In this document: piece by piece, positions 30,751 to 52,409 of the stretch
Layout of the letters: each line of letters starts with the position of its first letter
Position numbering within the stretch: the stretch's first letter is position 1
Origin: Mobula hypostoma
Lineage: Eukaryota
Direction of reading: 5' to 3'
NCBI RefSeq assembly: GCF_963921235.1
Contig: NC_086097.1
Coordinates: 84,756,001 to 84,820,000, forward strand
Length of the DNA: 64,000 nt
The notes under the pieces: generated by a model
What the model saw: the letters and a program-made list of their open reading frames with translations, nothing else
What the model was told of the DNA's origin: nothing
Database searches by the model: none
Made by a program: the position numbers and the translations under genes

Positions 30751-33107
30751 CCATTCCCCCTCAATCCTGGTTTTGTTTGGCTTGCAAAATCTTTCGCTTT
30801 TCCGATTGGTCACAGTGTTTTTTTTAATAAGACCCCGACCCTATCTCTCACCCCCTCTACCCTCTCCCAACTGCATTTAATGCAAATTGGGGAACCTGCC
30901 TTGCTTGGAGCCACACACATACAAATAACTATTGTACTTCGCAAATCAGTGGGTTTCTGCATAACATTTGCTCTGCAGTAGTGCTGGGATTGATTAAGCG
31001 GTTGATGTACGTTATGTGTGTGGGTATTTATACTCATTGCATTCCGGGTGCACCTTGACAGGCTGACAGCTGTCGCGTTCATTCATTTCTGCTGAGCCCT
31101 TGTTTACCTCGGTCAAATTTAGCGACTGCGCCACGGTCTTCCCTAAATAGGGCAAGCACTTGCCTTCGGGAAGGGAGGCGGTTCGAGGACGCCGAGGGGG
31201 CTGCTTGGGGACTGCGTACCCTCCTCCGGCCAAGACGGCAGGAACTGCGGCCACAACCCGCTGACAACACTCGACAGGCGCCCGGGCAGCCCGTACCTTC
31301 TTGCTGACCATCACCAAAGTAAACGGGAATCCTCCAGGAAGCCCCAGCAGTGGCACACGTTGTTGTCGTGTGTACGCGACCGTCTGAATCCAAAGTTGCC
31401 CACGGGCCATGTGCGTCTCTTGCTGTTAGTTAATGAAGCTCATGTCCGGGGCGTTTTACTTCACTGTTTACAGAGCAGCATCCAGCCCATTCCAAAGCGG
31501 CTCCTCGCCTGCGACATTCCGGCTCGTCTCAGCCTCATCTTTAAGTTATTTTTTTAAATGATTCTGATTTCCTGCTATTCGCCCCTTAAAATCTAATTTT
31601 CAATTTGTGAAACGTCGACCGTCCGTTCCCCTCCTTAGATGCTGCCTGACCTGCAGCGATCTTCCAATGTTTTGTGTGTTGTTTTAGTTTGTGGTTTTTG
31701 ACAAGGAATCAACTGGTGATTAAGGTCTTTGACTATTAGTGCCCCCTCCCCCCAGATCTAGTTAGTTGCAGCCTGGGCGAGTGATGCTATATGGCGCAGT
31801 CAGTCCCCCTTGCCTTCATCCCATTCCCGCAACTATGGTTGCTCTAAACAGTCATGCCTCGGATGGCTTTTGCACGGTGCGTGGATTCCTCTGCGTGAGG
31901 GTGAGCACCTGTCACAGCTGACCACTCTATGTGATCTCGAGTTGTAAATCTGATGCGTAAACAAGACCTCCTAGTTCTGACTTGTGGATAAGAAATCATA
32001 GTTATAATGAGTTTGACATAATATTTTGTAATGAAGGCATTGCTGGTCATCGTAAGTTACCCATGAGACGGTGCTGTTGAGCTGCTACATGAAGTGTCTG
32101 AGTTGATGGGGCAGGAACAGCGCTGTTCGGGGTGTGTGTGTGCTTCCTGGAATCTGACCTGCCAACACTGACGGACAGTTTGTAAGTTGGTACGATGGTG
32201 CTCCCAGCACCTGTTGCCCATGTTTTTTTGGAAGTGGCTCTGTGGAAGCGGGCGCTGCGGCTCAGGTGGGAGGAGTGAGTGTTCAGCACCTCCAGTGTGA
32301 GCATCCTTACAACTAACCCCTTGGCCGAAGGTGAATTCCCAGTCCAGTCATGCTAGCTTCTGCTGCTGTTCCCAGGTTCCCTTGTAACTGCTGAAGAACT
32401 CAGACTTTACCTGGTTAAGAGAATATCTCTGGCCCCTTGCTACTGATGGGTTCAAAAATTTAAGGCACATGGAGGTCCATTGACCTGACTAGGGAATGGA
32501 TGTCTCTGTTTGTCTCATTGCAGTTACATTTTTACATTTTGAAAAGTTGTGGTTGGGATCGGTTTGGAATTCTGCTCATTTGCTTAGGTAACAGGTCGGG
32601 CACCATACAGAATAACAGAGCAAATCTGAAAGGCCAATGCCTAATCTTAGTCTAAATTTCTTAAATAATTACATTCCCCCCAGTTTCTATTCAGGTTACT
32701 TTGATAGTCCTAAAGTGATTGAGCCTGATGTTTTACTGCTTATGCATGAGAGGTACCTGACCTCTTTTTGGTCCAGTGGGTGAAATCGCATGCTCATAAT
32801 GTCATGGTTCCACTTCCTGCCACACGGTGTGTGAGAGTCCCAAGGTACCATGTCCCACAGCCCAGCCAGTGGCCTGTGGAGTGTTATTGCACATCTCCTT
32901 GCTAAGTCCTGTTGTATCAAATTTTGTGAAAAGGGAAATGAAAAGCTGATTGTGGAGAGCATCTCCTGTCTTGAAAGCTGCAGCTATGCTCTGCTGGCTA
33001 ACACCGGCATTTTCTTTTTGAAATGTTTTTCAGATACGACAGTGGAGACCCTCCAGCTCTGAAAATTGATTTGATTTACGGGGGACGTCGAGAGTGAACC
33101 TGTTTGC

Positions 33108-34870
33108 ATGGCGTGGTTTGGATTGCAGACATTCATGTCATTTTGCCTCGTGGGCTTTGTATCAGTAATGTTGTTAATGCACCCACCTTCTGTGGATGCA
33201 GAAACACCTGGACCTGCAAGTTCTCCAAAGCAAAACAGCTCCTGCATGGGCAACTATGAATGTAAGCAGGGAGTTATTTTGCCAATATGGTACCCAGAAG
33301 ATCCATCCCTTGGAGATAAAATTGCCAGAGTTATTGTTTACTTTGTGGCAATGATCTACATGTTTTTGGGAGTCTCCATTGTAGCAGACCGCTTTATGGC
33401 ATCTATAGAAGTGATTACCTCGCAGGAAAAAGAAATTACCATCAACAAACCCAATGGAGAGACAAACACGACGATGGTACGAGTTTGGAATGACACTGTG
33501 TCCAACTTAACGCTTATGGCTTTGGGATCATCTGCTCCAGAAATCATGCTCTCACTGGTTGAAGTTTGTGGCCATGGGTTTGAATCTGGTGAGCTTGGTC
33601 CTGGTACCATTGTGGGCAGTGCAGCTTTTAATATGTTTGTCATTATTGCCATCTGCGTATATTCCATTCCTGATGGCGAGACCAGGAAGATCAAACACCT
33701 ACGTGTTTTTTTTGTCACAGCCGCTTGGAGCATTTTTGCCTACATCTGGCTGTACATGATCCTTGCCGTCTTTTCACCCGGCATTGTACAGGTGTGGGAA
33801 GGGTTGGTCACCTTTTTGTTCTTCCCCATCTGCGTCCTACTCGCCTGGATCGCTGACCGCAGACTCCTTTTCTACAAGTATGTGCGGAAGAAGTATCGCA
33901 CCAACAAGAACCGGGGCCTCATCATCGAGACCGAAGGTGAACATCCCAAAGGTATCGAGATGGACGGCAAGCTAGTGAACTCTCACTTCATGGATGGGAC
34001 ACTGGCAGCCTTGGATGGGAAAGAAGTGGACGAATCCCGCAAAGAGATGATCCGCATCCTTAAAGAACTGAAGCAAAAGCACCCTGAGAAAGAACTCGAT
34101 CAGCTGGTGGAAATGGCGAACTACTATGCTCTTTCCCACCAGCAGAAAAGCAGGGCCTTCTATCGAATCCAAGCCACCAGGATGATGACTGGCGCAGGCA
34201 ATATCCTGAAGAAGCACGTGTCCGAGCAAGCCAAAAGAAGCATGAGCATCCTTGAGGTGAGGCCGGACACTCCTGAAGATCTTTGCTCCCGCATTTTCTT
34301 TGAGCCATCTGCTTACCAGTGCCTGGAGAACTGTGGTGCGGTGTCACTGACTGTGATCCGCAAAGGCGGGGACATCTCCAACACGGTGACCGTGGACTAC
34401 AAGACGGAGGATGGCTCGGCCAACGCCGGTGCAGACTATGAGTTTAGCGAAGGAACCCTGGTCTTCAAGGCAGGTGAAACACAGAAAGAAATCACCGTTG
34501 GCATCATCGATGATGACATCTTTGAGGAAGACGAGCATTTCTTTGTGCGGCTTAACAACCTCAGAGTGATGGAACTGGAAGATGCGCTGGAGCCAAACAG
34601 CGTGCCGTACCCGAAAGCTTTGATCGTTTCCCCACTTGTTGCCACTGTGACTATTCTAGATGATGACCACGCAGGTATCTTTACATTTGAAAGCGATGTT
34701 GTCCATGTCAGTGAGAGTATCGGAGTGATGGAAGTGAAAGTGCTGAGAACGTCTGGGGCACGTGGGACAGTCATCGTTCCCTTTCGGACGATAGAAGGAA
34801 CGGCAAAAGGGGGTGGCGAGGACTTTGAAGACACCTATGGGGAGCTGGAGTTTAGAAACGATGAGACTCT
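33108..34870 (+). CDS. SLC8A3: Sodium/calcium exchanger 3 (NCX3), first coding exon (exon 33034-34870); the CDS continues beyond the window
   Basis: Signal peptide MAW..., alpha-1 repeat (GSSAPE, GSAAFN), XIP RRLLFYKYVRKKYRT, CBD1 (IIDDDIFEEDE, TILDDD), start of CBD2; NCX3-typical HPKGIEMDGK and MANYYALSHQQ; acceptor ttttcag at 33033; phase-2 donor CT|GTAAGT at 34871. Confidence 0.96.
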
Positions 34871-37800
34871 GTAAGTAGAATTCCTATCCCACATCTCTGA
34901 ATGTCTTGTTTTCTGTACTATTGGAAAACTAACTAGTAATACCTGTTTTGTTTAAAATTACAGCAGCAATTAAAGGAAGTTGGTGTTGAGCAGAACCATG
35001 GCTGTTTAATTTGGGAAAACATTTGTAAATATGTTTTCTTTGCACATCATTTTAACCCTTCAGTACACTCACAAAGTTAAAAAAAATGCAACTTACTCCT
35101 GGACTTGAGCGCATGGGTATTGTTTGAAGATGTCATTAATTCCACAATGCCTTATTGCTTTGGCTGACCATAGTAAAATACCTAAAAATGGACAAAACAC
35201 ACATAAGTGTTACTGTGATTGGATATTAAACAGACTTGGGCATTTCTTGACGACTGTGACTCTGCTGAGATACACATCGTGTAATGAAAGCAGCATATAC
35301 AAAAAGTCAAATCTTGCTGAAGTTTTTGTACATTGTTAATCTGATAGGCTTTTCCAGAGAGTGGGTTATATTACAATTAAACTACATACCAGAGTGCAGC
35401 CTTCCCTTATGACAAATCTTACAATAACCAGATCTCTTCCTAGACCCCTGCACTGAGATCCACAATTGTCAGGCTGCCCTTTTAAGGCAAGGAAGCAATT
35501 TTCTATGAGGAATCAGGCTCTCAATGTGCAGTACCTGTTTTTTTTTAAAGTTCCTTTTTAGTTATTTTTGTGATACTTTATCAATTAGTCAAAACAATCA
35601 TTTTAGAAAGTAAAAAAAATCGTGAGTATTGACATTGTCGTGTATCAGTTGCAGCACACTATTGTAATCCCTCCTTATTGGCATGGAGTTTTCCCGGGGG
35701 AGTACCATGGTGTTTTTTATCTAGATAGATGGATACAAGTGAAATGTTACTGGAGCTTGCTATTTTAATGTTCAGGTTAATTGTACCTTTAATAACCGTA
35801 TCCCTGATTAAAACCAGTTGAAAACTCCAAGATAATTTCCTGTTGTTTGAAGAGTCCATTGCCTCCAAATGTGGCTGCCCCTCATGTCACCAAGACAAGC
35901 TTCTGCAGCTTCCTCCCACACTGGCACCTGTTGGCACATTAATCCAGCACTAATCAGTTTTACTTGCAGCAACCAGGATTTCACAGAAGTCTGACCCAAC
36001 TGTCCCAGTTGTTACTGCTGCAGTTGCTGCAGAACACAAGACTGTAAAATCAGTTGTCTAAATGCAAATTGCTTACAACTGTTCACACTTGAGTGGCTTC
36101 AATTGACTGCTGATCAAGGAAGATCAAAGCGGTAAAAAGAAGCAAATTTAGAAAGTAGAAACAAGAGTGTCAAATTTGTAAATTAGAGGATGGCTCATCT
36201 CCAATCCACCTGCTCTTTTGGGTGCTGAGTGACAAATTCCGCCTGACTGCCTGGGTCTGTGAGAGATTATGGTCTGTGTTTATGCTGACATGTTTGCACA
36301 GAAACCTGTGTGCAACGTCACCCTGGCACTTTGCTGACTGCATCCCAAGCTAAAATTGTGCGGATCATCATTAACTACAGGTTCAATAGTGATACTTTTG
36401 ATCAAGAAATCAAAGAACTGGAATAAAATTCTTCTTGGATTGAAAAATAAGGAATTAAATATTAAAGGTACAAGCATCATCTTTGGTTTATCGCAAGTTC
36501 CTCTTGGACTTAGTTAAGCAAATTTGTGGATTAAATGATGTTGTTTCGCTTGATGGGTGATGATGTTAGTGTCAGCCATTAAAAAGGCTCCCAGGATAGT
36601 GATGTGAACTACCTCTTGTTTGGCAGTGTATCTGTTCTGTTGATGCTGGCAAGGGCATTCTGCACTGTTTCTTCCCAGCATTATTGCTGTTCACTAGAGT
36701 CACAGGACCAGGAGAATGCTAGAGTAATTTAAGAATTTGTAAGTAGAGCTGAACTCAGAACATGCGTTTAAATGGACCGGCTGGTTTCTGCCATGTGGAA
36801 TGTGCAAATTCAGCCGAGTTCAGTGCCTTGCAACCCACCTCTCGCAAGGTTGGTTTAAAAGCTGGTGTGTTGAAGTGATCTGTCTAATTTGCTCCAGAAA
36901 AAAATAAGGTGGTTGGAGTTAGATTTTTATTCTAAATTTCCAACCTCCCTTTACTCCCTTTAAAAATGATTGTAGTGTTCTCAGGAACATTATTTTTTTT
37001 TAATAAGGATTTTATCCATAAGTAGTTTCTGCTGAAATAGATGCTGAACCAATAGATGAATTTATTCAAAAATTATCTAGTTATTGTCCTCTGAATGGAT
37101 ACAGTTTAGTAATGAGTATTGGAAGTATTTGATTTTCATAATCATAATTATCCCTTTTTGAAAGGACAACATTGGACAGGCTCGTGCATTGTGTGTGTAT
37201 TAAAGAGTGAACTATGCAATGTGCCTTAAAGTGGACTGGTCTAATAAGTAAATTGATTGGCTGTGTGTTTCTCTTGCAGCAACACTGGATGTTATTGGTT
37301 GTACCATCAAATTGTTACAACCGTCAAATCGCTGTTATGTAGATCTGCAGTGATATACTGTATGTAGTCCCTAGACTGATTCTGTGGTCTGTTTATAAAA
37401 AGTCTGGAAGTAGCCAATTTTGTTTTATTTTGTTATGTGAGTAAATGTTATAGAACAGTGTCATCTGTGGTATCTTGCATCAGGACAACAAGCTGATTCT
37501 GTGTAAATTTATTTTCAACACAGCAAGTAGGAGCATTTGGTTTAAAGGTGTATGCAACCACTGACTGTGTATCTTGAACTGAAGCTGTCATTGGGAGATT
37601 TGTAAGATTAAAAAAAATATATATCCACAGGTTACTGAATGTTCAGTGTTTTTATTTATAGTACAGATCTTCAGTTCATGATGTCTGTACATTCTGTGCT
37701 GTTTCAGTGGGTATTGCATGGCTTTTGAAAGGTGTAAAGGCCAAATTTTGTAAATAAACAACGGAGGATAATATAGCTTTTTATCGCTTTTGTAACTTTG

Positions 37801-41956: not shown

Positions 41957-44900
41957 GGGTTACACAACTATTCAGGTTTTAGAATTATTATACTATTTTC
42001 CCTTTCTTTCATGTCACCAGATGTCATTCCCTGGTACAATAAAACAACTTCTTTGGAATTTGCACTGCATTATGGTGTAAGAGTACCTCTGGGGTGCTAT
42101 GACATCATATCAGTTTGTTTTGTTTCAGCCAATTGCAGATGTGCTGGCTCTGCTTGGCACAGTATCTCAGTATCTTAGCCAGTTAACACATCTGAATCTG
42201 TGGGATTCAGCAGATGGAACGCAGAATGCCCTAGGTACACCTCTGCACACCGCGACACAGACTGAATGTGCTGGCTACTTGCCTGTGCCTTGACAGAAAT
42301 ATGAGCTCAAACCTCAGCGGAACGCATTTGAAAGAGAAAATCTTCCTCCTCAAAGCTTTGTTTTGTTTAATTCCTCTTTTACTTCGTCCACGCAGAACCC
42401 GGCCTTGTGGCCAAGAATGGAAACCAGTGTTTAGTTTCTCAGCACATTCAGAGAAGTACAGTGATGCTTTTGCGAACGCTACAGATGTTATGAAGGGATG
42501 GTGTAAAGAGGCTAGAGGGCTGGGGAAGGGTTGGTGGAGAGACCAGAAACAATTCAAAATAGATTTTATCCTCTCAATGCCAAAGAGACCCTATAAGAAA
42601 AATATGGCGGGTTGGTAAATAAAACTCTGGTTAAAGTAATGGAGGGACTGATTGGAGGTCTGAGACAGCTGAGTCCATATGGAGTATCCACAACCCATGC
42701 AAATGCCTGCTGGTTCAGGGTTTCTGCTGAAGCAGTCACAAGTCTTGTGGTTATCTATATTGCTGTACTGAGAGCTTTGCTAATTATGAAATAAATATTA
42801 TTTTAAAATGTTTCTGTCTGACATATTACACAAAGCATAGTTCTGTATACAAGGTATAGGAAAAATACCATTGTTAGAGATTTCTCCAGATTAGTAACTC
42901 TAACCCAATTATATTTATGCATTGAAGACTATTTAGACTTCCTGAGATTTGCACTCCACAGTCATAATTCATCTAATTACATGCTAGTAATTGGTTTTCA
43001 GTACAGCAGTGGTCAGTCTCTACTCTGCTGTATTCTCCATTTTTGGTACTTAGTTTGGAATTAGATGAATATAGGACTGAAATAAAGAATATCTGGGGGC
43101 TTCATAAAGATAATTGGTGAATGAAATGAGGGGGGGGATAATGTAAACTTTTAATAATTACTTGTGATGGTATTGAGCTTGCCCTATCAGATATAAATAG
43201 CCACAAGATCTCTCACTAAAGGGAGATTATACTGTAACTACCCAATCTTCAAAGACTAGTTTACTTTCCTGTTTATTCTCCACAGTGAGTTTAGCTGCCA
43301 ATACCCACTATTCAAGTGATGGATCCCCTCTCCTTACTAAGGAGAAGATGCTTCCACCTAACAAATTGTTTAAACACTGTTCTTTTATTTTCAGTGATTC
43401 ATGTTTAAATATTCTTAAAAAACATTTAAAACTTAGAGGATTTCAATCTGAAATATTTACAAATTACAAACCATTTCTAAAACACAAAGCATTTCCTCTC
43501 ATAAAACACAAAGGATTTTCAAAACACATGTACAGTTCCTATAAACTAAAAAGACATACTGCAATGCAGACGAACAAGTCATCCATGGCAGAACCAAATC
43601 TGGAGGAATATATTCTAGTTCACCCCTTACCTCATTCATAATAAACCTGAACTTCTATTTGCATTAATACCCTTTTTCTTCCACTTGGGTGACTTCACAC
43701 GCATATGCTACTTCCTCAGATATTCTTTTAATACAGTCTAAAAACATCTTGAAGACAAAGTTCCACAAATAATGCTGTAAATACTGTGCAGCTAACTTCC
43801 TTAAGTACATAAAACTTTCCAACTATAAACACATCAGTTATTGATATGCTAAATGATTTTATCCACCTGTTATGCAAGCTTCCTTGAACTAAGCAACTTA
43901 ACAGTCAGCTTGTCTGTTTGAAACAACGCAAATTAAACAACCCATTGTATTATACTCTACTCTTGAGCAATAATTACAGAGCATCTTCAAAGTTGCTCTA
44001 TTGACAACACTTTTTATAAACTTCAAGCTGATTACTGCTTTCCATTTTAAGAATGGAAGACTGATTCATTAATGACAAATTGTTAGTTGGAAGATTACTT
44101 ACATCTATTTTTGACCTTACAAGTATCAGATGCTGTGTTTAGAAAGCCAGGATTAGCAAATAACCACGGGCCCATTGGCCTAGGAGTTACTACCTTCCTA
44201 TGGACATCAGCCTCCTGATCAAGGCTCCTCCTGGGATCAGACTATCACTTCTCTATCCGTTCCAGTAGGTTATCAGTTCTAGAAAGGCTCTCTTTGCTTC
44301 GGTGCTCAAGGTACTCATTGACTACTTCCCGATGTAGGGGTTTCTGTGAGATTTTTTAAAGAGTATTCACTCCCTCAATCTCAGCAGCACACATTTTCCA
44401 AACCTCAAACAAATGTCTCCATTATAATCTTCATAAACATGTGACAACAATGCATCAATGTTCATATTTTAGGTCTATATTAGTCCATCTTTAGAATCTT
44501 CTTCCCCACAAACAGTTCTTGCCATTTCCTTGATACAAGTTTGAATCAGTGTCTCGGTCACTGTTAGTTTATAAGGTCAGCTGGCAATGTCTTTCACTAA
44601 GATGAAGATAGATCGTCTCTTTCACAGGAGTGTTCACATTTGTTTCGATGCAGTGCATAAATTTATTCATGTTTCCTGAAAACAAGCTACTAATCATGTG
44701 TTGATGTTCTCTATAACCTAAGGATTAGTAATTTCACATTTTAATTGCAGAAAATCATCTCCATACATGATTTCATAATATAATAATGTACATAAAAAAT
44801 AAACATTTACAGAAGTAATGAAGCATATGGTTCTTCTGTACCTTAACTCGAGGCTCTCAGAAAAAAGTAAGTCACAATGTAAGGGTTGGTTATGTCCCTC

Positions 44901-46012
44901 CCATGGGAGTGAACACCCAATGGTATACTGTAACTTAACATTCTGGCACCAACCATACCACTGCATAAGCTCCTTCCCGTTTTCATGATTCTGAACTCTG
45001 GGTATGATTGTTCAGCTCTTCGACCTTTACTTTCTTAAGGTTTGGGCCTAACTGAGAAGAATTGACACTTCTTCCTTACTTTTATGTTTTCCCAGAAAAC
45101 TTTAATTGAGTTCTGTTCTGTCAAACCATAGGATTTTATCAACCAAATATACAAATAGTTCTGGTAATGTTAAATATAAAACAAATAGCAACATTGATAG
45201 GCTTGCTGGTCCTACTAGTTGCATTGTAAGAGTACCACATACACAATATATGCTTATACCCAAGTAGTAAGTTAATAGCAAATACATCCAAACTGTTCTA
45301 CTTTGTGACAATATAATGCTTTGTAAAACTTGGAGGCTGTAGGATTCCATCAATGTTTCTGAAGAAATCGCAATAGATTAGGTTAAAAGTATTGCATTCC
45401 TCAAAGGTATCTATCTTTCCCCTGGTAAATCTTCCACCATTGTATAATTTTGCACACAAAATCAAGTAAAATAGATGATTTTAAACGTTAAAGGTGTAAG
45501 CCATGGTACTATGATGCCATCATTAGCAATGAACAACATATTTACAAAGTACGTTATATTGAATTTAAGAAGCATATATTGTATATGAAAAGTTACCCAT
45601 ATTGAAATGTAAATATGCAACATCCTCAAAGGTAAGTAAAAATAATGTTTGTTGACTTATCTTTCTGTGGGATCGTGTTATTAGACCATCTACTCGTGAC
45701 AGACACATCCCAAGCCCACCCCTCCTCCCAAGTGAGGCAAGAAACATGCAAACCTGTATACAACGTCAGTATCAGGACTAGGAAAAGGAGAGGAGCAAGA
45801 ATAATAGATCAGATCTGTCTCTGCTCTTCACTCTTCCAGGGTTAATGATGAACCAGAGGAAAAGGCAAAGAGGTGAGTACGAGGCAATGTATACAAAGCA
45901 GACGTATGGGAGATAACTCATTGTGGTGCAGTTTAGGCATTGGAGTCAATGCAGTCTTAGGACTGGAACTGTTATACAATAAGCAGAAGTCAAATTTCCA
46001 TCCTTGCAGGCT

Positions 46013-48059
46013 TCAACATCTCAACAAAAAGAGCACTACAAAGACAATTATTCCAATAGCTAGGGGAATTGTCCATTGTAAAATTGCAAAAAAAATATAT
46101 ATAGCCCAATTTAAGTAGTGCCAATCCATCCGGAAACTGTGTTTGCTGCTGCAGAGACAGAATTTGCAGCAGTTAGAAAGGCCTGAGCTATTGTGTCAAC
46201 TAAAGTGCCAATCAGGGGCTTCGTATAAGTCTGCAAAGGAAACTTGTGAAAGGAGATGCCTCACACATCTAATTATGTCAGTTCAGTGACTCTCAGAGTG
46301 TATAAAGAAATATTCCTTTAATTAGACTGTTTCTTCTAGCCACTGTTGACAAATATCAAGTCCCTCTAGAACATTCTATGTTGCATCCATCATAAACCAT
46401 TCCTTAAAACTGGATTTGCATTTTCTGCCTTGAGATACCCAACATTGATTAAATCATCAAATTACTCTAAGTCATTTCCTTTATAAAGCTGAAAAAGTGA
46501 GTGATCCTCTGATAGCTGTATGTCTGAACAACTTTTGTTATCAGGAACTTCTACTTTCTGAGAGAACCAAAGGATCACGCCATTGCTATTGTAAGAATGA
46601 GCACTGTCAGGGCATGGCTGTACGAGCAGTGTTCCCCTTTTTTTATCATGAAAATTGTTAATGGCAGAATTGGTTTTTTCTCTCTGCTTGTTGATGACAA
46701 TGCTATGCGAGTGAATATACAGCAATAGTTGAAAGCTTGTCTGTGTATATAATTGGCATTATCAATTGGTCTCCAACAGTAAAATTTATCACAGGATTGT
46801 TTCCCCATTTTTCAACTTGTAGTCGAAGTCTATCTGAAATATAATTGAAGTTGTAAGGACACCAATAGTAAAGAACTAATTTTCATCATAAGACATTACT
46901 CGCACCATAGCGTGAACTATTCATGACTTTTTGATTAATAACAAATAAGAAATCTGGGTAGATGCAATAGCCTATGGAACTAAAATATCTAAAAATCTTA
47001 TTGCACTTTTCAGTTTTGTTTCATTTAGCTTCTGCTTCAGTGCATCTTTCCATCTTATCTTCACATGCAAAAACCCGGATCAAGGCTTTGCTGAATTTTT
47101 TTAGAACATAAGCCAGAAATGCAGACAATTGTCATGTTACCTTGATGTTTAACAATGGAATGGAAAAGTGGCCATAACTGGAGAAATGGAAAGGTCTAAC
47201 ATCTTCGTAGTAAGCATTTTCATAGGGTTGTTGGCCATCAAACTAAAGTGCAATAAGATATCTGGTTAATGGAGAAATCTTCATTAAGAAAGAAGTTCCC
47301 ACATTGTTCTAGTCTAAAGGTTTCAATGTCATGTTCCCATGAGTGGGATCATTCAATGACACAACAGTGCCTATACTTTTCTTCAAGTGTAGAGGGACCC
47401 ATGTCAAGGGATTACTCTATTAGTTTACCTTCAGTATCTGGGCTGGAATCTTTCAGTTCTGTTGGGGCATTAGTAATCATTTCCACAAGTGATTCTTTGC
47501 CTTCCCATGTTCATTTCATCTGCAATGCAGTCAGAGTGAATGTTTAAGTAGATGAGAGCAATTACTTTGCCTGAGGCAAGATTTAAGGGTTCCAGTGTAT
47601 GAGTTCACACATGACCAAGAGGTAAGGGCCATTTGGTGATCTTTAAATTAGAATCATCATAGCTCACAGATCCCCTTAATTTAATATTCTCTCTGAATCA
47701 TTAGGTTTTAGGCATGTCAGAGCCAGATGAGCCAATTTCTGTAGTAAATGTGACTTTGTCTGCGAGAAAGCAAATGGTAAGCAAGGCAGCACTGAACAGT
47801 ATTGCTATAAGCACAAATATTAGAAGTAAAATACAGCAAAAGCAAAATTTTTTCCTAGAGTTTGAGTCTGCCTTACTCTGAAAACAACAGCACATCCTGG
47901 ATGTATTATCCATGATAATCTTGGAGATCTTCCTCAAGCTTTTCAGATCTAAACAGGTGTTTTTATCTTTTCAGTAGATCGCATCCCCTCTCCACTCGTC
48001 AGGGTATAGGGATTCAGTGGTGGACCCGTGCTCTGGCCAAATATAAGAGTTGCACTCAT
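46013..48059 (-). pseudogene. Foamy-type env pseudogene
   Basis: ATG overlapping the pol stop (48059); Cys-rich leader + hydrophobic segment (ORF 47701..47937); PLGHV*THTLEP..LNIHSDCIADEMNMG/EGKESLVEMI; C-terminal AANSVSAAANTVSGWIG...LQWTIPLAIGIIVFVVLFLLRC*. Confidence 0.7.
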
Positions 48060-48360
48060 TCGAGGAGGATAAGTCGCGCCGTGGTAGGTTTGATATTCTC
48101 TATGTAAACAGTTCTGCTTTCAGTCCTGTTTCCCCTCCCAGCCTCGATTGCCACAGTCTTGTTGTAGGTAACCTTGTAATGATACAAGGAGCTTTCCATC
48201 TAGGATCGAAACTAGGGACAGAAATATTTTTATGGAATTTCCTTTCCTTGGACCCAGGCCCCATTCTGTGGTCTCCAAACTTTCCAGTTAGGTTCTTTTG
48301 CTTTCTCTTGAATTCCCATAAACACTCTCAGTTTCTTGAGACGAGTTGTATCGGGTACAG
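48056..48360 (-). pseudogene. Retroviral integrase C-terminal domain, spumavirus-like
   Basis: With two frameshifts: WRPQNGAWVQ/ERKFHKNISVPSFDPRWKAPCIITRL../TVAIEAGRGNRTESRTVYIENIKPT..*. Confidence 0.75.
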
Positions 48361-48632
48361 GCAATAGTTGACTGTGTTAGCAATCAAGAGTGTAATTAGG
48401 TGAACTGTATATTTTACAAATAAGGTGTAACGTTCTTGTATATTCCTATTTTCACCACTGACACTTTGCTAATGGACAGTTGCATTTCAGGGGCAAGTAT
48501 AGCCTACTTTGTGTCTCGAGTAGACCAGTTTTGCTAGCTCTCCTTAATCTCTCAATTCCTTTCCTCCGCCACGTCATTTGTGTGCAGCTGGAATGGAGTG
48601 CTGCTCTCCACTTCTGTGCCTGTTTGGTCTTA

Positions 48633-48924
48633 CGAGGGGTGATTGATAAGTTCGTGGCCTAAGGTAGAAGGAGTCAATTTTAGAAAACCTAGCACATTTA
48701 TTTTTCAACGTAGTCCCTTCCTACATTTACACACTTAGTCCAGCAACCATGGAGCATACAGATCCCTTCTTTGTAGAAGTCGGTGTCTTGGACCTCCAGA
48801 AGTGGTCCACAGCAGGGGTGATTGATAAGTTCATGGCCTAAGGCAGAAGGAGAAGAGTTATACAGCTCAACTCTTTGAGTGATTATCCAGAAAGTTTGAA
48901 GTTAATAACTCTTCTCCTTCTACC
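48633..48924. mobile_element. Mariner-like MITE remnant
   Basis: TA + cgaggggtgattgataagttcgtggcct terminus, repeated internally at ~48813; partial inverted copy at ~48901-24. Confidence 0.6.
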
Positions 48925-49774
48925 ATGATGTGTACCTGCTGCACACAGTTCTGTTCTTTGCTCTGTGTTTGTGTGCTTACATCCACTGAGGGATGGCTGG
49001 ATCAAGAGTTGTACTGGGAAGGCTGGGGTTGATGGGATGTTGCAGAGAAAGGGGCAGTACTTGTGCAGACCTGGAAGTGCTTTACACAATGTGTATTGGA
49101 TTCTGATTTGAATATCTGTAGTCCTAATTTGTGTGTCAATTTAACTGGATTTCAGCCATTGGTCCATAATCTGTGAGATCAGTAATCTGATTAGCCACCA
49201 ACTGTATTTATGATATTCCTGTCTTCTGCGTTCAGATTCCAAAAGCTGATGAAACGTGATTTGGATCAATTCTATTAATTTTCTAGTTTTCTGTATTGTA
49301 TACTAACTGTTAGAGCAAGCTATAGCTGGAGGCAATTATTTATTAAAAAAACAGCTCTTGACCTGTGTAGCTGATTCAGCAATAGAGCTAGTTGGAAAAT
49401 TTGTTCTTAAGTGGAGAAATCAGTTTATTTTCATGTCTGATAACTTGCTGCAGGATGTGAACAGGTTGACTCAGAGGCTTTGGTTGATTTAATCATCATT
49501 CACAGGCTAAAAAATGCCAAACATCATTCAGAGTACTCTTTACAGCTGCTATACCAATTGGTCTCTGCTATGCATTATGGGTTCCAACGTCAGCAAACAA
49601 ATCACTTTTCTTATGTGTTCGTAGTAGAAGACTTTTTCTGTCGTGAGACTTGCCCCTTGGAAAAAGCTTATTATTTATTTGGAAAGCCATGTCAATGTGC
49701 CTTTGGTACCATCTTCTAGGATATGAGGAATCAAAGTGGCTCAGGCAATTTGAGTTGGGTGTACTTTTCATCCA

Positions 49775-50253
49775 TCTATCATTGAAGCCTACGTCATCAA
49801 GAACCACCTAAGATGGAGCGGTCATGTTCGGATGAAAGATGAACGTCTGCCGAAACAAATCTTATACTCCCAGCGTAAAGAAGGCAAACATAAAAGAGGC
49901 GGACAACAGAAGAGATTTAAAGATGTCTTAAAAGCCAACATGAAGAAATGTAGCATCGACATGAACAATTGGGAAACCAATGCCAAGGACAGGAAACTCT
50001 GGCACACCATCACCCGAGAAGGAACAACAACTTTCGAAGCCAACAGTTGTGCAGAATTAGAAGAAAAGAGAAGAAACTGGAAAGAGAGGCAGCAACAACC
50101 AAAGTCCGATCTGTCATCTGGAACTACCTGTCCAGAATGCGGAAGAACTTTCAAAGCCAAGATTGGACTCATAAGCCAGTTGAGAGCCCATAAGTAGATC
50201 AATAGAATGAAGACCCTCATCCTCGACCTCGAGGGATAGCCACGATGACGACG
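49775..50253 (+). mobile_element. Young 5'-truncated RTE LINE 3' end
   Basis: Open ORF 49832..50197 (RLPKQILY..KRGGQQKRFKD..CPECGRTFKAKIGLISQLRAH); (gac)n tail; TSD acttt(t/c)catcca at 49763 and 50254. Confidence 0.9.
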
Positions 50254-51438: not shown

Positions 51439-52137
51439 TTTGAATTTGAATTGACTTTATTTCTTACATCCTTCACATATATGAGAGTAAAAATCTTTAT
51501 GCTACGCCTCCATCTAAATGTGCAATGTGCAGTCATAGTAATTTATAATAGTTTATAATAAATAGAACAGTCAATGCAATATAGAGTACACTCATATCAA
51601 CGTGAATTCATCAGTCTGATGGCCTGGTGGAAGAAGCTGTCCTGGAGCCCGTTGGTCCTGGCTTTTATACTGCGGTACTGCTTCCCAGATGGTAGCAATT
51701 GGAATAGATTGTGGTTGGGATGGCTTGGATCCCAATGATCCTATGGGCCCTTTTTACACACCTGTCCTTGTAAATGTCCTGAATCATGGGAAGTTCACAA
51801 CTACAGATGCACTGGGCTGTCCGCACCACTCTCTGCAGAGTCCTGCGATTGAGGGAGATACAGTTCCCATACCAGGCAATCAGGATGCTCTCAATTGTGC
51901 CCCTGTAGAAAGTTCTTAGGATTTGGGCGCCCATTCCAAACTTCCTCAACCATCTGAGGTGAAAGAGGCGCTGTTGTGCCTTTTTCTCCACACAGCTGGT
52001 GTGTACAGACCACGTGAGGTCTTCGGTAATGTGGATGCTAAGGAACTTAAATCTGTTTAACGTCTCAACCCCAGATCCATTGATGTCAAAAGGGGTAGCC
52101 CGTCTCCATTCCTTCTGAAATCCACAACCAGCTCCAA
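51439..52137 (-). mobile_element. Rex1/Babar-type LINE 3' end
   Basis: ORF 51665..52180 (FKFLSIHITEDLTWS..KAQQRLFHLR.LRKFGM..FYRGTIESIL); tail caattcaaattcaaa. Confidence 0.85.
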
Positions 52138-52409
52138 AGCTACTGCGGCAACTCTTTTGAAAAAGCATCCCCAGCATCAAGGACTACGATTAAGTTCATC
52201 CACTCTCAATTTGTCCACTTGCTCCATTCCAAGACCCCAAAGCAAGAACTCCACTCCAAACCTTGCCGTAGCAAGTGGTTCCTCGGGGGTTAGAGATAAA
52301 CCCCTTCATGTCTTCTGAATGAAATATAACATCCCGTTAAGCAGGATCCCCCAGCTCAAGACCATTCAGACTGAGGGAGACCATTCATATTGGGAAGCAC
52401 TGAGCACGT

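What the first reader, a model, noticed from the sequence alone, without database searches (positions are those of the whole stretch)
43300..48410. Foamy-virus-like endogenous retrovirus antisense in the SLC8A3 intron
Seen: minus-strand translation (two frameshifts) gives WRPQNGAWVQ/ER...FDPRWKAP..I.../TVAI...RTVYIENIKPT. As I recall it, this resembles the prototype foamy virus integrase C-terminus (WSP..G.LVQER...PRWHKP...RTVVI...RTVSIDNLKPT). It is followed directly by an env-like frame with a long Cys-containing leader and hydrophobic helix. The block IHSDCIADEMNMG/EGKESLVEMI recalls foamy Env INSENIANNANLTQEVKKLLTEMV, and a C-terminal anchor IPLAIGIIVFVVLFLL recalls KPILIGVGVILLVILIF. Established: foamy-like ERVs are known from fishes, amphibians and a chimaera. 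Inference: a possibly undescribed elasmobranch spumaretrovirus lineage. Env (~2 kb) is shorter than the typical ~3 kb, suggesting an internal deletion.
Basis: partly seen in the sequence, partly recalled or inferred. Interest (0 to 1): 0.85.

Follow-up and report, generated by a model that had tools for sequence, protein, structure and literature searches.

The report
Decayed foamy-like endogenous retrovirus copy
This stretch is the broken 3' half of an ancient foamy-virus-like retrovirus, fossilised backwards inside an intron of a sodium/calcium exchanger gene; it is one of hundreds of decayed copies and belongs to a kind already reported from cartilaginous fishes.

Summary
The quoted peptides are all present on the minus strand. 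Window 48629-43181 (minus) is a copy, cut short at both ends, of an old LTR element with at least 145-180 scored copies in the genome, all broken.

**Pol is foamy-like.**
- The integrase core profile hits PFV integrase at E 1e-16. The next best hit is HTLV-2 at 2e-5.
- The C-terminal domain, N-terminal domain and RNase H profiles hit only foamy proteins.
- The best hit among 1.84 billion proteins, P0030, is 34% identical to feline foamy virus Pol over 1047 aa.
- An integrase tree groups the family with P0030 and six foamy viruses, SH-aLRT 90.
- The primer-binding site resembles the foamy tRNA-Lys site.

**Env homology is weaker.**
- Three collinear env blocks match foamy Env 171-244, 353-411 and 912-969 above shuffle controls.
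- Pfam's Foamy_virus_ENV cut-off is never reached.
- Env is about 680 aa in every copy, about 340 aa short where foamy Env has its fusion region.

**Age.** The insertion is old and shared with at least one other organism.

Foamy-like ERVs of cartilaginous fishes are already published, so this is a new member of a known kind.

The parts
48300..48629 (-). Remnant of the end of the integrase catalytic core. The copy is cut off at about 48629, so the 5' LTR, gag, protease, RT, RNase H and most of the integrase are missing.
   Evidence: Homology with 10 other copies starts at 48603-48629 in six of them. A fragment of this stretch matches integrase seeds from other copies. No family sequence is found upstream within the part compared, window 36000-60000.
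48061..48299 (-). Integrase C-terminal (SH3-like) domain remnant, read across two frameshifts, ending at the pol stop at about 48061.
   Evidence: Strings located. window:48103-48327:- is a row of alignment A3, whose profile hits only PFV integrase 322-376 in the PDB, at E 1e-5. It also hits all six foamy Pol proteins above 2900 shuffles.
45847..47895 (-). Env remnant of about 680 codons, broken by many frameshifts and stops. It starts at a methionine kept in 10 of 14 rows and has a Cys-rich hydrophobic leader (47895-47700). The frame is also open upstream to about 48117, overlapping the end of pol.
   Evidence: Fragment alignments. The coding frame in most 90-base bins has 0.2-3% stops, against 5-19% in the other frames across copies.
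47340..47604 (-). Env block homologous to foamy Env residues 171-244.
   Evidence: Profile A10: two of the three PDB hits are foamy Env entries, at E 0.24 and 0.7. Five of six foamy Envs beat all 2900 shuffled decoys, best E 2.6e-4. hhalign gives probability 89% and P 2.2e-6; 0 of 30 column shuffles reach the score.
46754..47020 (-). Cys-rich env block aligned to foamy Env 353-411. Its spacing from the previous block is about the same as in foamy Env (about 117 vs 120 residues).
   Evidence: hhalign of A7 vs A11 gives P 0.0012. Real score 32.3 against a shuffle maximum of 19.8, 0 of 30. A member of this block is the top hit of a foamy Env HMM among 3196 ORF pieces.
46022..46260 (-). Membrane-proximal stretch and C-terminal transmembrane anchor of Env (anchor at 46069-46022), followed by a tail of about 55 codons to 45847. 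This copy has an in-frame stop between anchor and tail (the 9 bases 46013-46021).
   Evidence: A9 alignment. hhalign places it on foamy Env 912-969 at P 0.013; 0 of 30 shuffles reach it and the reversed control scores 14.6 against 25.2. The match is weak and partly anchor-on-anchor.
43974..45846 (-). Region of about 1.9 kb between env and the 3' LTR, conserved among copies. It is possibly former accessory gene(s); this is inferred.
   Evidence: Collinear in other copies. Several bins have one frame with 0-1.5% stops. No Pfam match in 0 of 29 fragments and no similarity to foamy Tas/Bel2 profiles.
43181..43973 (-). 3' LTR, lacking roughly its last 75 bases.
   Evidence: The same ~790-base sequence lies upstream of gag-pol in copies C50, C91, C73 and C21. 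In other copies the LTR continues about 70 bases past the point where the window copy stops.
48631..48924 (.). Very high-copy short repeat that abuts the 5' break of the provirus. It is context, not part of the element.
   Evidence: Summed word depth of 2-4 x 10^5 in four runs, against about 5-9 in the single-copy flanks. It matches an unrelated place in locus C22 at 85%.
33075..34871 (+). Large exon of a Na+/Ca2+ exchanger (NCX / SLC8A family) gene. The provirus lies downstream of it on the opposite strand.
   Evidence: 599-aa open frame. Pfam Na_Ca_ex, Na_Ca_ex_C and two Calx-beta domains. TIGR00845 positions 11-586 of 921, E 7e-289. Best Calx-beta match in the genome.

Best explanation
Window 48629-43181 (minus strand) is a non-functional fossil. 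It is the 3' part of a provirus of an old, abundant foamy-virus-like (spumaretrovirus-like, class III) endogenous retrovirus family. The parts present are the integrase tail, env, a post-env region and most of the 3' LTR.

Shown:
- It is a copy of an LTR element family.
- The family's RT, RNase H and integrase are closest to foamy virus Pol.
- Parts of env are remotely homologous to foamy Env.
- The copy is cut short at both ends, full of frameshifts and stops, and shared at this locus with at least one other organism.

Inferred:
- The ancestor replicated like a retrovirus, primed by a tRNA-Lys-type primer-binding site and integrated by its integrase.
- It spread in one burst, because the copies are about equally distant from each other.
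- It still had open env and post-env frames when it spread.
- This copy survives in antisense inside the NCX intron because that orientation disturbs the host transcript least.
- It has no function now.
For: **Family and LTRs**
- 60 DNA matches at 69-84% identity.
- At least 181 integrase matches and 145 env matches, none with an open frame over 346 aa.
- LTR copies lie on both sides of the internal region in other loci.

**Pol**
- Integrase core profile: PFV integrase E 1e-16 (64 bits) against HTLV-2 at 2e-5 and HIV at about 1e-3.
- C-terminal domain: only PFV integrase.
- N-terminal extension and zinc domain: PFV integrase at 7e-7. RNase H: only foamy entries.
- All six foamy Pol proteins beat 2900 shuffles for all three profiles.
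- A foamy Pol HMM hits family fragments over RT, RNase H and integrase, down to E 1.8e-16.
- The best hit in 1.84 billion proteins is P0030 (104 bits). It carries RVT_1, tether, RNase_H, H2C2, rve and the foamy-type SH3_11 domain, and is 34% identical to feline foamy virus Pol over 1047 aa.
- Integrase tree: family 98*, joined with P0030 at 81, and with the six foamy viruses (plus two long-branch rows) at SH-aLRT 90. Gamma-like integrases and GIN1 sit across a 99* branch.

**Primer-binding site**
- It lies directly after the LTR in the two copies that keep it. It matches the site of six foamy virus genomes at 12 of 18 and 11 of 18 positions, and three of the 13 mismatches in all are CpG decay.

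**Env**
- Three collinear blocks lie above shuffle controls.

**Gag**
- One fragment hits Pfam Gag_FV_central at E 0.008. The two gag-region pieces rank 1st and 3rd of 3196 for a foamy Gag HMM.

**Age**
- K2P between this copy and 10 others is 0.22-0.24. One LTR pair gives 0.169.
- A contig of organism B spans the 3' junction at 1.6% difference.
Against: - No Pfam Foamy_virus_ENV match reaches the curated cut-off. There was nothing in the three window frames at E <= 1, none in the whole genome in a stricter first look, and 1 of 13 block members at E 0.21.
- A fragment from the RT region of one copy also hits that model at E 0.039, so weak hits to it can be chance.
- Four of seven env blocks show nothing against foamy Env: the leader, E3a and A8 by hhalign, and A7, A8 and A9 by plain hmmsearch.
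- Env lacks about 340 residues where foamy Env has its cleavage site, fusion peptide and first heptad repeat.
- On the integrase core alone GIN1 scores 59.6 bits, between feline foamy Pol (55.8) and PFV (64).
- The clade with foamy viruses has SH-aLRT 90 only, from a quick search, on decayed fragments with long branches, and includes two long unrelated-looking rows.
- No Spuma_A9PTase protease hit in 0 of 114 fragments. P0030 carries RVP instead.
- No similarity to Tas or Bel2.
- The gag evidence is weak.
- No published fish or shark foamy-like ERV sequence could be put in the tree.
Confidence: 0.85

Rival explanations
1. It is a retrovirus fossil of a deep class III or unclassified lineage that is only the nearest neighbour of foamy viruses among what could be compared here. 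It would not be a member of the foamy-like ERV clade proper. Its short env would then be a different or recombinant glycoprotein sharing only some segments with foamy Env.
For: - The support for the clade with foamy viruses is moderate, and it holds two long rows, one named pol-like protein ENS-3.
- Env is about 340 aa shorter, and four of seven blocks show no foamy similarity.
- P0030 has RVP rather than the spumavirus A9 protease, and reads as one Gag-Pro-Pol frame.
- No Tas/Bel2 similarity.
Against: - All three integrase sub-domains and RNase H hit only, or far best, foamy proteins in the PDB.
- P0030 aligns to feline foamy virus Pol over 1047 aa at E 2e-158.
- The primer-binding site is foamy-like.
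- The env matches are collinear and one spacing is conserved.
Confidence: 0.1
2. It is a Ty3/Gypsy-type or GIN-related LTR retrotransposon with an env-like ORF, not a retrovirus.
For: - Pfam on fragments gives only Integrase_H2C2 and RT_RNaseH_2, which Gypsy elements share.
- GIN1 scores 59.6 bits on the integrase core profile.
- Several Gypsy/Copia polyproteins rank high. The higher-ranked of these (P0031-P0035, P0037, P0039-P0041) match in two or more stretches; P0042 and P0062 match in one.
Against: - A retroviral RNase H follows a tether domain.
- The foamy-type integrase N-terminal extension and SH3 domain are present.
- GIN1 and the Gypsy rows fall outside the family + P0030 + foamy clade. 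GIN1 lies across a 99* branch.
Confidence: 0.03

Closest known systems
Foamy-like endogenous retroviruses of fishes and cartilaginous fishes: FLERVs (Aiewsakun & Katzourakis 2017, PMC5512871); ERV-Spuma.0-Sca of the small-spotted catshark (PMC10699275); 'cartilaginous fish endogenous foamy virus' (Wang, Chen & Cui 2023, J Virol, title only seen)
   Same: An LTR provirus with a foamy-like Pol, a region between env and the 3' LTR without known homologues, many decayed copies and great age. A tRNA-Lys-type primer-binding site is reported for a ray-finned-fish FLERV (PMC5512871, passage read).
   Different: No sequence of these elements was at hand, so identity with, or distance from, any published lineage is untested. 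For the ghostshark, PMC5512871 says no gene other than pol could be detected. [quoted passage not shown] Here three env segments and, weakly, gag show foamy similarity. Whether the 2023 J Virol paper already reports this is unknown.
Exogenous foamy viruses (Spumaretrovirinae): six genomes fetched as L041-L046, and PFV integrase and Env in the PDB
   Same: Integrase architecture (N-terminal extension, zinc domain, core, SH3 domain), RNase H, primer-binding site, env overlapping the end of pol, Env with a hydrophobic leader and a C-terminal anchor, and collinear Env segments 171-244, 353-411 and 912-969.
   Different: Env is about 680 aa rather than 982-989 aa. No match was detected to the cleavage site, fusion peptide or heptad region. 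No Spuma_A9PTase, Tas or Bel2 similarity. Amino-acid identity is low: P0030 is 34% identical to feline foamy virus Pol, and the family fragments are 25-45% identical to P0030.
P0030, an unnamed 1687-aa polyprotein from a 10,956-base contig of a public run assembly
   Same: It is the closest protein found (104 bits on the integrase core, against 75 or less for all others). It aligns to the family over RT, RNase H and integrase, and is its sister in the tree.
   Different: It is intact, whereas every family copy seen is broken. Identity to the fragments is only 25-45%, so it is a relative and not the same family. Its origin and its env were not examined.

Membership tests
Foamy-like endogenous retrovirus (Spumaretrovirinae-like, class III) | Pol groups with foamy viruses in a phylogeny | tested here: met
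   Integrase tree of 47 rows. Family (98*) + P0030 (81) + six foamy viruses (94) form a clade at SH-aLRT 90, with two long rows inside. Gamma-like integrases and GIN1 lie across a 99* branch. It was a quick search on fragments only. No RT tree was made and no published fish FLERVs were included.
Foamy-like endogenous retrovirus (Spumaretrovirinae-like, class III) | Integrase with N-terminal extension, zinc domain, core and SH3 domain most similar to foamy integrase | tested here: met
   PFV integrase at E 1e-16 (core), 1e-5 (C-terminal domain, the only hit) and 7e-7 (N-terminal part). All six foamy Pols rank above 2900 shuffles.
Foamy-like endogenous retrovirus (Spumaretrovirinae-like, class III) | Retroviral RNase H downstream of a tether (degenerate RNase H) domain | tested here: met
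   Only foamy RNase H / PR-RT entries are hit in the PDB, at E 0.004-0.03. Pfam RNase_H appears in 3 fragments and RT_RNaseH(_2) in 3 of 114. A foamy Pol HMM covers 625-745 at E 1e-12.
Foamy-like endogenous retrovirus (Spumaretrovirinae-like, class III) | Foamy-type Env (Pfam PF03408 at its curated cut-off) | tested here: not met
   No match at the cut-off. Remote homology of three collinear blocks is supported by profile comparison with controls. Four of seven blocks show nothing, and about 340 residues of the foamy layout have no counterpart.
Foamy-like endogenous retrovirus (Spumaretrovirinae-like, class III) | Foamy-type Gag | tested here: inconclusive
   Gag_FV_central at E 0.008 in 1 of 114 fragments. 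A foamy Gag HMM ranks two gag-region pieces 1st and 3rd of 3196, at E 0.3-0.7. Only three copies with gag were at hand.
Foamy-like endogenous retrovirus (Spumaretrovirinae-like, class III) | Primer-binding site for tRNA-Lys(1,2) directly after the 5' LTR | tested here: met
   12 of 18 and 11 of 18 positions are identical to the site found in all six fetched foamy genomes, at the LTR boundary. Three of the 13 mismatches in all are CpG decay. The tRNA assignment of that site is recalled knowledge. No tRNA gene was compared (one search found none in the loci held).
Foamy-like endogenous retrovirus (Spumaretrovirinae-like, class III) | Spumavirus A9 protease at the start of Pol | tested here: not met
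   0 of 114 fragments hit at E <= 0.5. The intact relative P0030 has RVP. The protease region of the family copies was not identified.
Foamy-like endogenous retrovirus (Spumaretrovirinae-like, class III) | Accessory genes (tas/bet type) between env and the 3' LTR, with an internal promoter | tested here: inconclusive
   A conserved region of about 1.9 kb with low-stop frames exists. It has no similarity to Tas/Bel2 or to Pfam (0 of 29). The promoter is not testable here.
Ty3/Gypsy or GIN1-type integrase elements | Integrase groups with Gypsy/GIN1, and there is no retroviral RNase H | tested here: not met
   GIN1 and the Gypsy rows lie outside the family's clade. A retroviral RNase H is present.
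Gamma/epsilon-type (class I) ERV | MLV-type integrase C-terminus, gamma-type Env (TLV_coat) | tested here: not met
   Neither domain was found in the fragments scanned. Gamma-like integrases lie across a 99* branch.

The most novel reading that the evidence does not exclude
The family and its intact relative P0030 may represent a deep spumaretrovirus branch of cartilaginous fishes. Its Env would be a compact ~680-residue version of the foamy glycoprotein: the receptor-side segments and the anchor are kept, but the part that in foamy viruses carries the cleavage site, fusion peptide and first heptad repeat is missing or replaced. Either this is a different fusion design at the root of the foamy Env/paramyxovirus F-like fold, or the family spread to hundreds of copies with a fusion-dead env. 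An intact relative in a public run could mean that such viruses still circulate.
Probability: 0.15. Interest if true: 0.6.

Novelty: new member of a known kind. Interest (0 to 1): 0.35.

Why it matters
Foamy viruses are the oldest known retrovirus lineage, and their history is read from fossils such as this one. A cartilaginous-fish family with recognisable foamy-type env segments, a foamy-type primer-binding site and a dated, shared insertion adds a calibration point. It also adds a short Env variant to compare with the recently solved foamy Env structure.

For the host gene it probably matters little, since this is an inert antisense intronic fossil. As a find it is modest, because foamy-like ERVs of sharks, a chimaera and 'cartilaginous fish' are already in print.

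Tried and rejected
**Pfam and family scans**
- Pfam on long stop-masked frames of the window and of three other copies gave almost nothing: nothing for the C50 copy, and only a below-cut-off Integrase_H2C2 and RT_RNaseH_2 hit for the other two. The frames shift too often, so I went over to natural ORF fragments.
- PF03408 over the whole genome found nothing, under a stricter first look.
- Foamy Tas/Bel2 profiles against the ORF pieces found nothing.
- The P0030 Gag part against the pieces gave a best E of 0.13.

**Alignments and word-indexed searches**
- Alignments A1 and A5 stacked non-overlapping fragments on each other and were discarded.
- The word-indexed protein search gave only generic retroviral integrases of 53 bits or less for the core. 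It gave nothing for the integrase C-terminal domain or the env block. At that database size, scores under about 35 bits cannot pass.

**Env blocks**
- A7, A8 and A9 had no foamy Env hit in the PDB by hmmsearch.

**Genome fetches**
Better-preserved copies were therefore not examined.

**Other look-ups**
The NCX exon was found another way.
- ARAGORN found no tRNA genes in 26 loci.
- Earlier notes of this scan held nothing for this place, sequence or topic. The 8 shown of 21 'foamy' notes concern other genomes and other matters.

**Sequencing runs**
- No RNA holder was listed.
- Parts of the stretch without listed contig cover are not read as absence.

**Papers not held**
- Wang, Chen & Cui 2023 and Chen et al. 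2021 in J Virol.

**Not attempted**
- Structure prediction, because only fragments of about 180 aa or fewer with shallow alignments were available.


Full report
**1. The observation**

The integrase-like strings lie at 48277-48083 and are read across two frameshifts. The env-like strings lie at 47541-47475, and the hydrophobic anchor at 46069-46022. The region has few long open frames, and Pfam finds nothing in its three minus frames read with X at stops. By itself the copy is therefore too decayed to classify.

**2. It is one copy of a repeat family with LTRs**

The window's own genome is held: 3.48 Gb, with the window at contig C1:84756001-84820000.

- Window 46000-48400 finds 60 matches at 69-84% identity, out of 459 first-look candidates.
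- I fetched 20 kb around ten copies. Their homology with the window runs from 48629 to 43181.
- The last ~790 bases (43973-43181) recur several kb upstream of the internal region in copies C50, C91, C73 and C21, so they are an LTR.
- In other copies the LTR runs about 70 bases further than in the window.
- The window copy therefore lacks the 5' LTR, gag and nearly all of pol, and also the end of its 3' LTR.
- In the fullest copies, about 4.1 kb lies between the 5' LTR and the point that corresponds to 48629. The whole element was thus roughly 10-10.5 kb.
- An integrase fragment finds at least 181 matches and an env fragment at least 145. No open frame exceeds 346 aa.

**3. Pol is foamy-like**

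I used only natural, uninterrupted ORF fragments of different copies, aligned per sub-domain.

- Profiles against all PDB chains:
  - The integrase core gives PFV integrase at E 1e-16, with HTLV-2 next at 2e-5 and HIV at about 1e-3.
  - The C-terminal domain, whose alignment includes the window's own fragment, gives only PFV integrase 322-376, at E 1e-5.
  - The RNase H end plus integrase N-terminus gives PFV integrase 24-91 at 7e-7, and otherwise only foamy RNase H / PR-RT entries.
- Against 1.84 billion representatives, the core profile's best hit is P0030: 104 bits in one stretch. Feline foamy virus Pol scores 55.8 and GIN1 59.6. Most of the other hits ranked above them (75 bits or less) are Gypsy/Copia polyproteins that match in two or more stretches.
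- P0030 carries RVP, RVT_1, tether, RNase_H, H2C2, rve and the foamy-type SH3_11 domain. It is 34% identical to feline foamy virus Pol over 1047 residues, E 2e-158.
- P0030 also aligns to the family copies over RT, RNase H and integrase at 23-56% identity.
- A Pol HMM made from six fetched foamy genomes hits family fragments from RT to the integrase C-terminus, down to E 1.8e-16, against a background of 3196 ORF pieces in all six frames.
- In an integrase tree of 47 rows, the four family fragments (98*) join P0030 (81). Together with the six foamy viruses (94) and two long-branch rows they form a clade with SH-aLRT 90. Gamma-like integrases and GIN1 lie across a 99* branch, and the Gypsy rows form their own groups. 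This is a quick tree on decayed fragments and should be read as moderate support.
- Right after the 5' LTR, the two copies that keep that part carry an 18-mer matching the primer-binding site shared by all six foamy genomes at 12 and 11 of 18 positions. Three of the 13 mismatches in all are CpG decay. That this site pairs with tRNA-Lys(1,2) is recalled knowledge.

**4. Env**

The fragments give a path of about 680 codons from 47895 to about 45847:
- a methionine kept in 10 of 14 rows;
- a Cys-rich hydrophobic leader;
- a helical-looking charged block;
- two Cys-rich blocks;
- a membrane-proximal stretch, the anchor, and a tail of about 55 residues.

Across copies, in most 90-base bins one frame has 0.2-3% stops against 5-19% in the others. 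The best frame relative to the window changes often. The ancestor was therefore open, and the window copy has many indels.

Against foamy Env:

| Block | Window / foamy Env region | Result |
|---|---|---|
| A10 | 47604-47340 → 171-244 | Two of three PDB hits are foamy Env (E 0.24, 0.7). Five of six foamy Envs beat all 2900 shuffles (best E 2.6e-4). hhalign probability 89%, P 2.2e-6. |
| A7 | 47020-46754 → 364-411 | hhalign P 0.0012. An overlapping block maps to 353-381. |
| A9 | C-terminal block → 912-969 | hhalign P 0.013. |

- For these blocks, 0 of 30 column shuffles reach the real score, and the reversed controls are low.
- The leader, block E3a and block A8 are not above the controls.
- The matches are collinear, and the first spacing is conserved: about 117 against 120 residues.
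- Between the second and third match the family has about 163 residues where foamy Env has about 500. All ten copies have the same length there.
- Pfam's Foamy_virus_ENV never reaches its cut-off. One RT-region fragment hits it at E 0.039, a warning that weak hits to this long model occur by chance.

I conclude that env is a remote, shortened relative of foamy Env. This is solid for one block, fair for a second and weak for the anchor region.

**5. Gag and the post-env region**

- One gag-region fragment hits Gag_FV_central at E 0.008; it is 1 of 114 fragments.
- A foamy Gag HMM ranks two collinear gag-region pieces 1st and 3rd of 3196, at E 0.3-0.7. This is suggestive only.
- The ~1.9 kb between env and the LTR is conserved and has low-stop frames. 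It matches nothing in Pfam (0 of 29) and neither Tas nor Bel2.

**6. Age and sharing**

- K2P between the window copy and ten others is 0.22-0.24. This is very even, as after a single burst. The two LTRs of copy C91 differ by K2P 0.169.
- Four coded runs of other organisms were laid on window 42300-49700.
- A 1292-base contig of organism B covers 42310-43239 with 15 differences, so it spans the 3' junction at 43181.
- Single-copy-depth contigs of organisms C, D and G cover parts of the provirus and its flanks at about 4-10% difference. That is far closer than the ~20% between paralogues. It suggests, by inference and without a spanning contig listed, that they carry the same insertion.
- The burst would then be roughly 2.5 times as old as the deepest of these splits. 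No absolute date is given, because no substitution rate for the host is at hand.

**7. Context**

- Window 33075-34871 (+) is the large exon of a Na+/Ca2+ exchanger. It covers TIGR00845 positions 11-586 of 921, with Pfam Na_Ca_ex, Na_Ca_ex_C and two Calx-beta domains.
- The rest of the protein must be encoded downstream. The provirus therefore lies in an intron, antisense.
- Which of the four loci with two Calx-beta matches each is SLC8A3 was not tested, nor was the host's identity.

**8. Comparison with what is known**

- Foamy-like ERVs are described from ray-finned fish, coelacanth, amphibians and the ghostshark (PMC5512871, passages read). For the ghostshark, no gene other than pol was detected there.
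[quoted passage not shown] I saw only its title and its text is not held.
- The finding is therefore a new member of a known kind, possibly one already described.
- What may be new is the evidence for foamy-type env segments, the short Env, the foamy-type primer-binding site and the shared insertion. This cannot be claimed without reading that paper.

**9. Verdict**

- The core of the interpretation, a foamy-like ERV antisense in an NCX intron, is supported.
- The novelty claim is overstated.
- The 'internal deletion' is a family-wide trait of uncertain origin.
- Interest is modest.

Noticed in passing
window 48631-48924: A short repeat of extreme copy number abuts the provirus's 5' break. Summed word depth is 2-4 x 10^5 in each of four runs of four organisms, against 5-9 in single-copy flanks. 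Many contigs end at 48630/48631. It looks like a SINE-type element, and it may have been inserted at, or have caused, the break.
   Followed up: partly
window 43041-43534 and 43782-44028: Parts of the LTR, and the bin that holds its truncated end, have about 300-900 times the single-copy word depth at 88% likeness. The internal region has about 3-65 times. There may be many solo LTRs, or a younger LTR-derived repeat.
   Followed up: no
window 45846-43974 (minus) and the same part of 10 other copies: The ~1.9 kb between env and the 3' LTR is conserved among copies and has frames nearly free of stops. These include a hydrophobic stretch around 45660-45460. It matches no Pfam family (0 of 29 fragments) and no foamy Tas/Bel2. 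It may hold unknown accessory gene(s).
   Followed up: partly
P0030 (protein from a 10,956-base contig of a public run assembly): An intact 1687-aa Gag-Pro-Pol-like frame, 34% identical to feline foamy virus Pol, is the closest relative of the family. It has RVP rather than the spumavirus A9 protease. An intact foamy-like virus or young provirus may therefore exist somewhere.
   Followed up: partly
window 33075-34871 (+): A 599-codon exon of a Na+/Ca2+ exchanger gene. Four loci with two Calx-beta matches each were seen in the genome (C1, C2, C40, C82).
   Followed up: partly
window 49754-50197 (+) and 51665-52183 (-): Open frames that look like the C-terminal parts of LINE-type reverse-transcriptase proteins. 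The same repeats recur near other copies. Nested LINE insertions also interrupt copies C18a, C50 and C73.
   Followed up: no
L028:4609-4914:- (copy C21, RT region): A 102-aa fragment from the RT region hits Pfam Foamy_virus_ENV at E 0.039 and a foamy Env HMM at E 0.024, where no env should be. It is taken as a chance hit and as a caution on weak hits to that model.
   Followed up: partly
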